A DNA stretch of 44,061 nt from a virus (lineage: Duplodnaviria; Heunggongvirae; Uroviricota; Caudoviricetes), in IMG/VR virus record IMGVR_UViG_646564533_000010; one strand, 5' to 3'. This document shows positions 6,001-9,000 of the stretch, piece after piece. The position numbers were made by a program. Position 1 is the first letter of the stretch; the number at the start of each line of letters is the position of its first letter.

Positions 6001-9000
6001 AAGTGGTCTTGTAATGATTTTGCTTTCTTCAATTTCTTTATTGCAAAGGTGATAAGCACATTTTATTTTCTTAGTCATTACCATGACTCCGCCTTTACAG
6101 GTAAACCATCACGACCGAGGAAGACTCTAATCATGCAGTCAGAAATGCATGTTTTTGTAGTCAGGCTACGAATATAAAGTTTTCGCTTTTTAATATTGTT
6201 TGCCGAGGCGATATATGTCCGACCTTCATGAAGAACATAATCGCCAGGAGTCACACACTGACGTGGTATTTCATCAGTTCCGAAGTGATGAGCAATCATA
6301 ATTATCTCCATTTTTACAAATGAATTTTGTCGATGCGGTGCCTGGTGCCTCCAGGTGACGTTAACCAGTTAACAATTAACGCCGGATAATCCACCCATAA
6401 CACTGATGCTTTTAACTGTGCCGCGTGCGCTTAGCCGCATTCACCGCATCACAAAATTTACTTTAAAAAGGGGCGGCAGGGCAGCCACGGAGTAGAACTG
6501 ATGCCGCCAAAGACTACACATAGCAATGTCGTTATTTACAACCGGAGGCGCACTCCCACCATTTAAATTTAACAGACAAGACCGACTCTTTATGGATACC
6601 GGAAATGCGCCTTCGTGTTGTGCCCGGTTTTATTTCACCACCTCCGGGCTTTGGTGGCCTCGGCTATACCCCTACAGCAAGAATATTGAATTAATCCAAT
6701 AAATGGTTTAGCTGGTATTTTTGGCAAGCCAGCGACGTGCGCCAGCTTCGGTTTTAAACGATTTGCTTTTGGTATACGTCATGGCGGTGAATGTGCCGTC
6801 CTGATTGGGAAACACGCCACATACCAGAGATTCGTTGTTGCCAAGATCGATAGTATCCATGTTGACCTCATTTCCCCTTAACGCCGGGTGGCGGAACGTT
6901 TTATCTACTGCGCTTTGTATCAATCAACAACTGCCGTCATGTTCGTATGCCTCAGGCTGGCTACTTAGCCCCTTACCACTGCCTGGTAACTCGAAGTATT
7001 GCCCGGCGTTCTGTGGGGCGGGGTGGGTGGTATGCTGGAACTATAGGTAATGCCTAATTGATTGTCAATAGGCTATGCCTAATGTTTTGAGCGTAACCTA
7101 ATAGGTGATGGCAACAGGAGAAAGTGATGGGGGGTTAAATAACGGAATCCAGGAGTTTTCCGTCAGACCATATAAGTTTAAGTTCCAGTTTTTGTGATGT
7201 TCTGGCTTTTCCGTTCAGATTCTAGAGCTTTCAGATACTTACCCACTTTCATTTCCATCGCTGCTATGTAGGCGCGAACATCGTGGTCAACCCAATCTGG
7301 TTCTGTAGCATTTCCAGATAACAGGAAAGCTACAATCGCTCTTATTTCATCAGAGGCTGCTTGATAAAGGTTGTTTATATCTAAAAGTTCACTTTTTGTA
7401 TCTGAATTGGTGGCGGTTGGTATGGGGTATTCGTTAAGCCCCCAATGCTCTGGACCAACAACATCAGAAAAGAAACGCCATAATTCTGGAAGTTTATCTT
7501 TACTTATGGAGCCTTTCTTAATCCAGTCATAAATTGATGGTGGTTGGACTTTGAAGTGGCGTGCGACCTCCGCCTTTGATTTGACGGATCCCGATGCGAT
7601 TTTTTTGTTAATGGCCTGCTCTATCGCTCGGCCTAAGTCTTTACCACTAAGCATTGCTTAATATTCTCCTATGCTCATTGCATTAGGCAATCCCTACCCT
7701 TATTGCATTAGGCATAGCCTATTGACATTTGCGTTAGGCGTCGCCTAATATTTCTGTGTGTTTTTGGAGTTCATTCGATGAAAAAAGAGAACTATTCATT
7801 CAAGCAAGCTTGTGCTGTTGTCGGTGGGCAATCAGCAATGGCTAGGCTTTTAGGTGTATCACCTCCAAGCGTAAATCAATGGATCAAAGGGGTACGTCAA
7901 TTGCCTGCCGAGAGATGTCCAGCAATTGAACGTGCAACAAGAGGTGAGGTTCTGTGCGAAGAACTTCGTCCTGATATTGACTGGTCATATTTACGACGTT
8001 CGGCATGTTGTTCGCAGAATATGTCAGTGAAGTAACTAAATGACAGTAACAAATCCTCATTTGATCATACCTGAAACATCAAGAGGCAAATGATTCATGA
8101 AAATCAAGCATGAGCACATCGAATCAGTGTTGTTTGCCCTGGCAGCCGAAAAAGGGCAGGCATGGGTAGCCAATGCAATTACTGAAGAATATCTGCGCCA
8201 GGGGGGCGGCGAATTGCCCCTTGTACCAGGCAAGGACTGGAACAATCAGCAGAATATCTATCACCGTTGGTTGAAAGGTGAAACGAAAGCGCAAAGGGAA
8301 AAAATTCAGAAACTGATCCCTGCGGTTCTGGCAATTCTTCCGCGCGAGCTGCGTCACCGACTCTGCATCTTCGATACCTTGGAACGCCGTGCATTACTGG
8401 CGGCGCAGGAAGCGTTGAGTACGGCAATTGATGCGCATGATGATGCAGTCCAGGCCGTTTACCGGAAAGCACATTTCAGCGGTGGTGGGTCGCCCGGCGA
8501 TTCTGTCGTAGTGCATTGATTGAAATTAATCGTGCCGGATTGTTTTGTTCGGTATCAGTTAAATGTAACGCTGCGAGCGTTACAAGGTGAAAACAAATGG
8601 CTTCAAACTGGATAAAGCTCGAGGTTATTACGCCGGATAAGCCGGAAATATTCAGGCTTGCTGAGATTCTGAATATTGATCCAGATGCCGCATTAGGGAA
8701 GGTTATTCGCTTCTGGGCATGGGCGGATCAACAAATGATAGACGGTAATGCAGATTGTAACGCTCGCGGCGTTACAAAAAGTGCAATAGATCGCATCACT
8801 TTTATGGCTGGTTTTGCTGATGCGTTAATTCAGGTTGGATGGCTGGTCGAAAATGACGGTGGGCTTTCTCTACCTAACTTTGAACGTCATAACGGAAAAA
8901 GCTCTAAAAAACGGGCGGTTACAAACGAGCGAGTTACAAAAATACGCGAACTGAAACGAAAATGTAACGCTGCCAGCGTTACACAAACGGATCAAAAAGC

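What the first reader, a model, noticed from the sequence alone, without database searches (positions are those of the whole stretch)
7047..7748. racR is bracketed by a perfect 22-bp inverted repeat and clusters of ATTAGGCA half-sites (OL/OR-like operator sets)
tgtcaataggctatgcctaatg at 7063-7084 (downstream of racR) is the exact reverse complement of 7706-7727 (in the racR-ydaS divergent region). Both regions also contain further copies of the ATTAGGCA/TGCCTAAT half-site and the palindrome TTAGGCGTCGCCTAA. This suggests RacR binds on both sides of its own gene, controlling rightward ydaS-ydaT and leftward ydaF-kilR-recET transcription.
Basis: seen in the sequence. Interest (0 to 1): 0.5.

Follow-up and report, generated by a model that had tools for sequence, protein, structure and literature searches.

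The report
Left and right operators flanking racR
The perfect 22-base inverted repeat around the Rac prophage repressor gene is the shared "operator plus -35 box" of two outward-facing early promoters, so it is an ordinary lambda-style OL/OR switch; I found no paper describing its left half for Rac.

Summary
7063-7084 is the exact reverse complement of 7706-7727 and is the only exact inverted repeat of 22 nt or more in the window. All five TAGGC-N3-GCCTA sites with at most one mismatch lie in two clusters on either side of racR.

Each arm is one 17-bp RacR-type operator (O2) fused to a TTGACA -35 box. The right arm belongs to the published ydaS-ydaT promoter. The left arm belongs to an equally good leftward promoter, TTGACA-17-TATAGT (7068 to 7040, minus strand). 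That promoter points into a leader, a DUF1391 gene, DicF, kilR, recE, recT and int.

The same layout, [O2]TTGACA-n6-[O1]-overlapping -10, lies downstream of RacR-type repressor genes in 16 of 25 genome loci, from Escherichia to Achromobacter and a Xanthomonas-like genome. It also lies on that side in 94 of the 96 viral contigs that carry the motif and hold such a gene. Flanking DNA in these loci is unrelated.

The right-hand sites are already known from published footprinting in K-12. No accessible paper describes the left-hand set or its promoter in Rac, although published RNA data show the left genes are derepressed when RacR falls.

Verdict: a lambda-type OL/PL and OR/PR arrangement, and a new member of a known kind. 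Direct RacR binding at the left set remains untested.

The parts
7063..7084 (.). Left arm of the perfect 22-bp inverted repeat. It consists of the -35 box (TGTCAA on the + strand) fused to operator OL2 and its flank.
7706..7727 (.). Right arm of the perfect 22-bp inverted repeat. It consists of operator OR2 and its flank fused to the TTGACA -35 box of the ydaS promoter.
7040..7068 (-). Predicted leftward early promoter (PL-like): -35 TTGACA at 7068-7063, a 17-nt spacer, and -10 TATAGT at 7045-7040. The predicted start is about 7033-7036.
   Evidence: One search gives 11 of 12 consensus matches. The same layout is conserved in relatives. No transcript start data exist.
7044..7056 (.). OL1, TAGGTAATGCCTA (one mismatch to TAGGC-N3-GCCTA). 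It lies between the -35 and -10 boxes, and its last TA forms the first two bases of the -10 box.
7069..7081 (.). OL2, TAGGCTATGCCTA (perfect core). It abuts the -35 box and sits 25 bp centre to centre from OL1.
7088..7106 (.). Doubtful third left site. It includes the half-site ACCTAAT (7096-7102) and an ACCTA-A-TAGGT palindrome (7096-7106). It is conserved in Escherichia variants but not in other genera.
   Evidence: three mismatches to the core motif, so it was not detected
7140..7165 (-). Weak hairpin followed by UUAUUU after the racR stop codon. It is a possible racR terminator, with low confidence.
   Evidence: z-score -0.7, not significant
7178..7654 (-). racR, a 158-aa repressor with an HTH N-terminal domain and a non-S24 C-terminal domain.
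7648..7660 (.). Operator on the racR start codon (TAAGCATTGCTTA, two mismatches). This is the published O3 of the 2022 paper, counted among the four inverted repeats in the 2023 paper.
   Evidence: PMC9638921, PMC11014345
7684..7696 (.). OR3, TAGGCAATCCCTA. It overlaps the -35 region of the leaderless racR promoter. It is the ancestral O2 of relatives, moved 25 bp away from the rightward -35 box.
   Evidence: PMC9638921 for the racR promoters in K-12
7709..7721 (.). OR2, TAGGCATAGCCTA, abutting the ydaS -35 box. Its sequence is identical to OL2.
7735..7747 (.). OR1, TAGGCGTCGCCTA (core of TTAGGCGTCGCCTAA), lying between the -35 and -10 boxes of the ydaS promoter.
   Evidence: in K-12 this region is protected at the lowest RacR concentration (PMC9638921)
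7722..7751 (+). ydaS-ydaT promoter (PR-like): TTGACA, an 18-nt spacer, TAATAT.
   Evidence: start site and -10 mutagenesis published for K-12 (PMC9638921)
7668..7717 (.). Two tandem 25-nt units (7668-7692 and 7693-7717, 76% identical). They give Escherichia Rac four right-hand operators where relatives have three.
   Evidence: family D2
7778..8035 (+). ydaS, the Cro-like first gene of the rightward operon.
   Evidence: YdaS_toxin 1.8e-31; P22_Cro 2.4e-9
8097..8519 (+). ydaT, the cII-like gene.
6861..7035 (-). Untranslated leader of the leftward operon. It is shared at about 90% identity with lambdoid prophages of other immunity types, and the homology stops at the predicted start of the left promoter.
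6708..6860 (-). DUF1391 (YdfA/YdaF-family) gene, the first gene of the leftward operon in this window.
   Evidence: 3.5e-29
6471..6522 (-). DicF small RNA within the leftward operon.
   Evidence: 60.9 bits, gathering score 48
6078..6299 (-). kilR, further down the leftward operon. recE (2786-5458), recT (1984-2850) and int (1-1236) follow on the same strand.

Best explanation
The repeat marks the two ends of the Rac immunity cassette. racR sits between two early promoters that fire outward: a leftward PL-like promoter (7068 to 7040) and the rightward ydaS-ydaT promoter (7722-7751).

Both promoters are built the same way. One RacR operator (O2) abuts the -35 TTGACA box. Six or seven bases further on, a second operator (O1) has its last two bases forming the start of the -10 box. 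The 22 identical bases are O2 plus the -35 box. About 21 of the 22 positions lie within these two functional elements. Of those, only the 3-nt operator spacer is free to vary.

RacR dimers bound to O1 and O2, 25-26 bp apart, would cover both promoter hexamers and exclude RNA polymerase. This would keep ydaS-ydaT silent on the right. On the left it would silence the leader, the DUF1391 gene, DicF, kilR, recET, xis and int.

Status of each step:
- Shown here: the sequence anatomy and its conservation across distant relatives.
- Published for K-12: RacR footprints on the right-hand sites, the RacR octamer in solution, and derepression of the left-hand genes when RacR is lost.
- Inferred: RacR binding at the left sites, the promoter activity and start site of the left promoter, and any OL-OR loop across the roughly 640 bp between them.
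For: 1. Exact 22-nt inverted repeat, unique in the window.
2. Both arms lie in the two best sigma-70 matches of the region, 11/12 and 10/12, pointing away from racR.
3. All five sites with at most one mismatch fall in the two clusters at 25-26 bp spacing; no such pair appeared in 300 simulations.
4. The motif equals the published RacR operator (T/A)TAGGC-n3-GCCTA(T/A) and the monomer site ATTAGGC, defined by DNase I footprinting (PMC9638921) and by EMSA and ChIP (PMC5700373).
5. Phylogenetic footprint: 16 of 25 genome loci encoding a RacR-type N-terminal domain carry the same module 68-2,490 bp downstream of the repressor gene. The consensus is atTAGGCnnnGCCTATTGACa-n6-tTAGGCnnnGCCTAataT, and the flanks do not align. 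The taxa include Mixta, Morganella, Proteus, Erwinia, Achromobacter, Pigmentiphaga, Herbaspirillum and [Pseudomonas] boreopolis. Klebsiella phage KpF5, an isolated phage, has it too.
6. Of the first 120 viral contigs carrying the O2-(-35) motif, 96 hold a RacR-like N-terminal domain. In 94 of those a module lies on the downstream side in the expected orientation, and 57 have both sides.
7. Homology with prophages of other immunity types stops exactly at the predicted left start site, so the left sites belong to the immunity-specific cassette.
8. The left-hand genes rise 40- to 100-fold when RacR falls (PMC6765115, PMC11014345, bioRxiv 10.64898/2026.09.06.749655).
9. RacR is an octamer by size exclusion (PMC11014345).
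Against: - No binding, reporter or start-site data exist for the left region. I found none in the searchable literature.
- The published derepression of the left genes was measured while YdaS and YdaT were also induced, so it could be partly indirect.
- Only two strong left sites exist. A third is weak and not conserved outside Escherichia.
- Viable racR-intergenic-ydaS(T) deletions with kilR intact were reported (PMC5700373). Either a derepressed left promoter is tolerated in K-12, or those deletions removed it. The text does not say which.
- 9 of 25 genome loci showed no downstream pair within the DNA held. Some of those loci are short contigs.
Confidence: 0.85

Rival explanations
1. The left cluster binds RacR but is not a promoter. 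It would serve only as an auxiliary anchor for looping to the right-hand sites, or as a roadblock or terminator that stops racR transcripts from reading into the left genes.
For: No strong intrinsic terminator follows racR. RacR is an octamer (PMC11014345). The two clusters are only about 640 bp apart.
Against: The left -35 and -10 boxes match consensus at 11 of 12 positions. Together with the 17-nt spacing, they are conserved in 13 independent lineages even where the module lies up to 2.5 kb from the repressor gene. That pattern is expected of a promoter, not of a pure anchor. The shared leader begins right at the predicted start.
Confidence: 0.06
2. The left sites are used mainly by the Cro-like YdaS (or by YdaT) rather than by RacR.
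For: In the sister prophage CP-933P, both the repressor PaaR2 and YdaS repress the left promoter about 100-fold (PMC8630535). YdaS is reported to compete with RacR at the right-hand sites (PMC11014345).
Against: OL2 is identical to OR2 and OL1 differs by one base, and these sequences match the RacR-footprinted motif (PMC9638921). The module co-occurs with the RacR-type N-terminal domain across taxa. Shared use by both proteins is the lambda norm and is compatible with the main explanation.
Confidence: 0.04
3. The identity results from a recent duplication or gene conversion between the two sides and has no function of its own.
For: A 25-nt tandem duplication did reshape the right side in Escherichia (family D2). 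The new unit carries the copy identical to OL2. Identity in the 3-nt spacer is not needed for binding.
Against: The left module exists in relatives that lack the duplication, and in them the two sides differ. K-12 already shows a spacer mismatch. Identity beyond the functional elements falls to chance level (33 nt at 85%).
Confidence: 0.03
4. The arms are terminal inverted repeats of a transposable element that carries racR.
For: A perfect 22-bp inverted repeat brackets a single small gene.
Against: No transposase lies between the arms, only racR. No direct repeats flank the arms. The arms are made of operator and promoter elements, and their partners (O1 and the -10 box) lie outside the arms. 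The distance between the two modules varies from about 0.6 to more than 3 kb among relatives. Other immunity types show the same bracket with different sequences.
Confidence: 0.01

Closest known systems
Bacteriophage lambda OL/PL and OR/PR flanking cI
   Same: A repressor gene lies between two outward early promoters. Operators sharing one consensus overlap the -35 and -10 boxes. Adjacent sites are 24-26 bp apart. The repressor transcript is leaderless. A Cro-like gene comes first on the right. The repressor forms an octamer.
   Different: The operator sequence is unrelated (TAGGC-N3-GCCTA). The left set has two strong sites rather than three, and the right set has four in Escherichia. The two sets are about 640 bp apart, compared with roughly 2.3-2.4 kb in lambda (from memory). 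The RacR C-terminal domain is not an S24 peptidase, so induction is not by RecA-stimulated self-cleavage (PMC3121763, PMC10448788). Looping has not been shown.
Prophage CP-933P: PL933P with OL1-3 and PR933P, controlled by PaaR2 and YdaS (PMC8630535)
   Same: It has a ydaS/ydaT-type immunity region. The left promoter's -35 and -10 boxes are identical to those of the right promoter, and it carries operator copies. Reporter fusions show repression by both the repressor and YdaS. The repressor is an octamer.
   Different: The operator motif differs (GTTTAGTAA-type). A toxin-antitoxin pair lies between the repressor gene and the left promoter. That left promoter was tested experimentally, whereas the Rac one has not been.
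Published RacR operators in the racR-ydaS intergenic region of K-12 (PMC5700373, PMC9638921, PMC11014345)
   Same: The motif is the same, and the sites correspond to 7648-7747 in this window. The right arm of the repeat is one of these sites plus the ydaS -35 box.
   Different: These papers treat only the region upstream of racR. They attribute the octamer to the four intergenic repeats and describe the RacR regulon, including the racR-proximal ydaFG operon, as not yet characterised in detail.
Qin prophage dicA-dicC with dicBp (PMC10448788)
   Same: The leftward promoter drives a ydfA-type (DUF1391) gene and DicF. The transcribed leader in this window is homologous to those of dicB-type operons. 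Operators lie on both sides of the repressor gene.
   Different: The repressor is DicA and the operators differ. Only the transcribed part is shared, not the promoter-operator part.

Membership tests
Lambda-type immunity region (OL/PL - repressor - OR/PR) | The repressor gene is flanked by two early promoters that fire away from it. | tested here: met
   One search finds TTGACA-17-TATAGT on the minus strand at 7068-7040 and TTGACA-18-TAATAT on the plus strand at 7722-7751. racR lies at 7178-7654.
Lambda-type immunity region (OL/PL - repressor - OR/PR) | Several operators of one consensus overlap the core elements of both promoters. | tested here: met
   Searches place two sites on the left and four on the right. 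O2 abuts the -35 box and O1 overlaps the -10 box on both sides.
Lambda-type immunity region (OL/PL - repressor - OR/PR) | Each operator set has three sites. | tested here: inconclusive
   The left side has two strong sites. A third candidate (7088-7106) has three mismatches and is not conserved outside Escherichia.
Lambda-type immunity region (OL/PL - repressor - OR/PR) | A Cro-like gene comes first in the rightward operon and a cII-like gene comes next. | tested here: met
   ydaS hits YdaS_toxin and P22_Cro; ydaT hits YdaT_toxin. The roles were argued by Jobling (PMC5917428).
Lambda-type immunity region (OL/PL - repressor - OR/PR) | The repressor physically binds both operator sets. | not testable with these tools
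   Binding on the right is published for K-12 (PMC9638921, PMC5700373). I found no data for the left.
Lambda-type immunity region (OL/PL - repressor - OR/PR) | The leftward operon is derepressed when the repressor is lost. | not testable with these tools
   RNA data are published for K-12 (PMC6765115, PMC11014345, bioRxiv 10.64898/2026.09.06.749655). They do not separate direct from indirect effects.
Lambda-type immunity region (OL/PL - repressor - OR/PR) | The repressor octamer forms a long-range OL-OR loop. | not testable with these tools
   The octamer is shown by size exclusion (PMC11014345). No looping assay has been reported.
RacR operator family, (T/A)TAGGC-n3-GCCTA(T/A) | The site matches the footprint-derived palindrome and the ATTAGGC half-site. 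| tested here: met
   OL2 has no mismatches and OL1 has one. ATTAGGC occurs at 7052 and 7077.
RacR operator family, (T/A)TAGGC-n3-GCCTA(T/A) | The sites co-occur with a RacR-type N-terminal DNA-binding domain across taxa. | tested here: met
   16 of 25 genome loci, and 94 of the 96 viral loci that hold the domain.
Transposable element with terminal inverted repeats | A transposase or recombinase gene lies between the arms. | tested here: not met
   Only racR lies between the arms. Pfam gives only a weak HTH match.
Transposable element with terminal inverted repeats | Target-site duplications flank the arms. | tested here: not met
   The outer flanks are ...ctaattgat and tttgcgtta..., which share no direct repeat.

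The most novel reading that the evidence does not exclude
The left-hand pair is the missing partner for the RacR octamer. On this reading, two dimers at OL1-OL2 and two at the right-hand sites bridge only about 640 bp, which would be a much shorter loop than lambda's. That differs from the published suggestion that four dimers line up on the four intergenic repeats.

The same two-operator promoter design is then an old, portable module. Proteobacterial phages keep it across Gamma- and Betaproteobacteria while swapping the repressor's C-terminal domain between an SOS-cleavable S24 type and the non-cleavable RacR type. Escherichia Rac added a fourth right-hand operator through a 25-bp duplication.
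Probability: 0.35. Interest if true: 0.45.

Novelty: new member of a known kind. Interest (0 to 1): 0.3.

Why it matters
RacR is one of the few essential transcription factors of E. coli K-12. Its regulon is described in the 2023 literature as not characterised in detail.

Locating a left promoter-operator gives a direct mechanism for several known effects of RacR loss: kilR and DicF expression, activation of the RecET recombination genes, and the rise in xis and int that leads to Rac excision. It also offers a concrete alternative reading of the reported RacR octamer.

The site is a defined target for experiments, including operator mutants, reporter fusions and re-sequencing of the classical sbcA alleles that activate recET. 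Conceptually it is the expected lambdoid layout, so the gain is completeness rather than surprise.

Tried and rejected
With two mismatches allowed, only 22578 and 24296 appear outside the two clusters, which is within chance. The prophage therefore has no third set.
- Rfam search and RNA folding of the 173-nt left leader and of the racR 3' region, looking for nut- or put-like elements or a terminator. There was no Rfam hit on the leader and the folding z-scores were not significant.
- A covariation test between repressor specificity and operators. It was not possible because every relative retrieved, down to 41% identity, uses the same TAGGC-N3-GCCTA motif. I used phylogenetic footprinting instead.
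- Literature search for a described Rac OL/PL. None was found. Conter et al. 1996 (PMC178304) is not held, and older sbcA papers are not searchable, so an earlier mention cannot be excluded.
- The transposon-end reading. Rejected; see the rival explanations.
- The terminator-like hits (7069-7081 and 7733-7749, plus strand). These are the operator palindromes themselves, not terminators.
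Full report
**1. The observation**

Reading 6700-8200 shows tgtcaataggctatgcctaatg at 7063-7084 and its exact reverse complement at 7706-7727. The repeat finder reports the pair as I1 and extends it to 33 nt at 85%. A k-mer index shows it is the only exact inverted repeat of 22 nt or more in the 44,061-bp window. About 5e-5 such pairs are expected under a uniform model.

ATTAGGC occurs six times in the window, which is not more than chance (expected 5.0). Five of the six lie at 7052, 7077, 7682, 7707 and 7743, so the signal is in the clustering.

The full palindrome TAGGC-N3-GCCTA with at most one mismatch occurs five times, at 7044, 7069, 7684, 7709 and 7735, and nowhere else. 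Simulated windows give 0.75 sites on average, and none of 300 contained a pair spaced 24-27 bp. Three such pairs are observed.

One detail in the finding is wrong. TTAGGCGTCGCCTAA occurs only on the right (7734-7748).

**2. Identity of the locus**

The region is 99.6% identical to E. coli chromosomes annotated racR and ydaS, and about 98% identical to K-12-type Rac.
- racR is at 7178-7654 on the minus strand.
- ydaS is at 7778-8035 and ydaT at 8097-8519, both on the plus strand.

To the left, all on the minus strand, lie:
- a DUF1391 gene at 6708-6860;
- DicF RNA at 6471-6522, scoring 60.9 bits against a gathering score of 48;
- kilR at 6078-6299;
- recE at 2786-5458, recT at 1984-2850 and an integrase at 1-1236.

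**3. Anatomy of the repeat**

The promoter scan returns only three hits in 6600-8100, and the two best are the two arms:
- minus strand, TTGACA (7068-7063), 17 nt, TATAGT (7045-7040), 11 of 12 matches;
- plus strand, TTGACA (7722-7727), 18 nt, TAATAT (7746-7751), 10 of 12 matches.

The plus-strand promoter is the published ydaST promoter. Its start site and -10 box were verified in K-12 (PMC9638921).

On each side one operator (OL2 at 7069-7081, OR2 at 7709-7721) abuts the -35 box. A second operator (OL1 at 7044-7056, OR1 at 7735-7747) lies between the hexamers, and its last TA starts the -10 box. Centre-to-centre spacing is 25 bp on the left and 26 bp on the right.

The 22 identical bases are therefore the 17-bp operator ATTAGGCATAGCCTATT overlapping TTGACA. 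Only the 3-nt operator spacer and one outer base are free of obvious function. In K-12 the spacer already differs (ACA versus ATA). Perfect identity is therefore incidental, while the architecture is what is conserved.

**4. What is already published**

The right-hand sites are known.
- GCCTAA/TTAGGC repeats, EMSA showing three complexes, and ChIP (PMC5700373).
- DNase I footprints, the ATTAGGC monomer motif, and the operators (T/A)TAGGC-n3-GCCTA(T/A). The ydaS promoter is protected at the lowest RacR concentration (PMC9638921).
- Four inverted repeats and a RacR octamer by size exclusion (PMC11014345).

When RacR is depleted, ydaG, ydaF, kilR, ydaE, racC, recE, recT, ralR, xisR and intR rise 40- to 100-fold (PMC6765115; PMC11014345; bioRxiv 10.64898/2026.09.06.749655).

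None of these texts mentions sites downstream of racR. [quoted passage not shown]

Two related prophages do have a described left promoter. In CP-933P a left promoter with operator copies was found and shown to be repressed about 100-fold by both the repressor and YdaS (PMC8630535). In Qin, operators lie on both sides of dicA (PMC10448788).

**5. Comparative test**

RacR homologues share a nearly invariant N-terminal domain. A genome-collection scan with their alignment gave 25 loci.

In 16 of the 25, a pair of TAGGC-N3-GCCTA sites 25-26 bp apart lies 68-2,490 bp downstream of the repressor gene. Besides Escherichia, the taxa are Mixta, Morganella, Proteus, Erwinia, an unclassified Pseudomonadota MAG, three Achromobacter, Pigmentiphaga, Herbaspirillum, [Pseudomonas] boreopolis and one more MAG.

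Printed in register, all have the same layout, pointing away from the repressor gene, with unrelated flanks. The consensus is atTAGGCnnnGCCTATTGACa-n6-tTAGGCnnnGCCTAataT. The rightward promoters of the same loci follow the same design.

Klebsiella phage KpF5, an isolated phage, has the module 1.4 kb downstream of its repressor gene, beyond a DUF450 gene.

A scan of viral contigs for TAGGCNNNGCCTATTGAC hit the 120-locus limit.
- 96 of the 120 loci hold a RacR-type N-terminal domain.
- In 94 of those 96 a module lies on the downstream side in the expected orientation.
- In 57 the modules bracket the gene on both sides.
- None had a module in an unexpected place.

This is strong phylogenetic footprinting for a functional left promoter-operator tied to this DNA-binding domain.

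**6. Boundary of the immunity cassette**

Window 6931-7035 alone matches thousands of E. coli genomes and several phages. In two of them it is the leader of the DUF1391-ydfB-ydfC-DicF-dicB operon, next to repressors of other types.

The alignment shows that homology ends at about 7035, which is the predicted start of the left promoter. Beyond that point each immunity type has its own sequence. Those other types also show inverted repeats bracketing their repressor genes. The bracket is thus a general property of lambdoid immunity regions.

**7. Mechanism**

The best explanation is that RacR dimers on O1 and O2 occlude the -35 and -10 boxes of both early promoters. The left promoter controls the DicF-kilR-recET-xis-int operon.

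The anatomy and its conservation are shown here. Binding at the right side, the octamer and derepression of the left genes are published. Binding at the left side, the left start site and any loop across 640 bp (OL2 centre at 7075, OR2 centre at 7715) are inferred. I give the main explanation a confidence of 0.85.

**8. Caveats**

- There is no direct evidence for the left side.
- Derepression may be partly indirect, through YdaS and YdaT.
- Only two strong left sites exist.
- Viable racR-ydaS(T) deletions with kilR intact (PMC5700373) mean either that a derepressed left promoter is tolerated or that those deletions removed it.
- Older sbcA and kilR papers could not be read, so an earlier description cannot be excluded.

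**9. Rivals**

A pure anchor or roadblock role does not explain the conserved -10 box and spacer. Recent conversion without function is contradicted by relatives in which the two sides differ but both modules exist. The transposon reading fails on every defining feature. Use by YdaS is likely as well, but that is compatible with the main reading.

**10. Verdict**

This is a real, non-chance feature. The right half is already known. The left half appears undescribed for Rac but is the expected lambdoid element. It is a new member of a known kind, of modest interest.

Noticed in passing
window 6471-6522 (-); also 6292-6481 (-): A DicF small RNA (60.9 bits, above the gathering score) lies in the leftward operon between the DUF1391 gene and kilR. 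K-12 Rac has no DicF here. A sub-threshold STnc100-like match sits next to it.
   Followed up: partly
window 6861-7035 (-): The leader of the leftward operon is about 90% identical to leaders in lambdoid prophages and phages with unrelated repressors (L029, L030 Tritos). Homology ends at the predicted left start site, which marks a mosaic joint. Left of about 6933 the window also differs from K-12.
   Followed up: yes
window 7668-7692 and 7693-7717: A 25-nt tandem duplication gives Escherichia Rac four right-hand operators (0, -36, -61 and -87 from the racR ATG). Every other genus has three (0, -35, -60). The ancestral middle site, TAGGCAATTCCTA, keeps even its spacer across taxa, probably because it holds the -35 box of the leaderless repressor promoter.
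   Followed up: partly
L014, L015, L016, L018, L024, L028; proteins P0103, P0106, P0111: Repressors with a RacR-type N-terminal domain fused to a Peptidase_S24 C-terminal domain occur in Achromobacter, Pigmentiphaga, Herbaspirillum and Pectobacterium. They use the same operators and promoter layout, so the DNA-binding module is shared between cleavable and non-cleavable repressors.
   Followed up: partly
L003 2428-3582; L015, L016, L018, L024, L026, L028 between the repressor gene and the left module: In several relatives one to three extra genes sit between the repressor gene and the left promoter. An example is the DUF450 gene in Klebsiella phage KpF5. This is the position of rexAB in lambda and of the toxin-antitoxin pair in CP-933P.
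   Followed up: no
window 7096-7106: ACCTA-A-TAGGT is an 11-bp palindrome of operator half-sites in the reverse (tail-to-tail) arrangement. It is conserved between the window, K-12 and an 88%-identical O103 variant, but not outside Escherichia. Its role is unknown.
   Followed up: no
window 12209-12230: A perfect 22-bp palindrome, CGATATGGGAATTCCCATATCG, is the only other long exact palindrome in the window.
   Followed up: no
L006 (Candidatus Nanosynbacter MAG) and L019 (Alistipes senegalensis MAG): A contig 99% identical to E. coli Rac is binned in a Nanosynbacter genome, and a RacR-like locus is binned in an Alistipes genome. Both are probably binning contamination in the public assemblies.
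   Followed up: no
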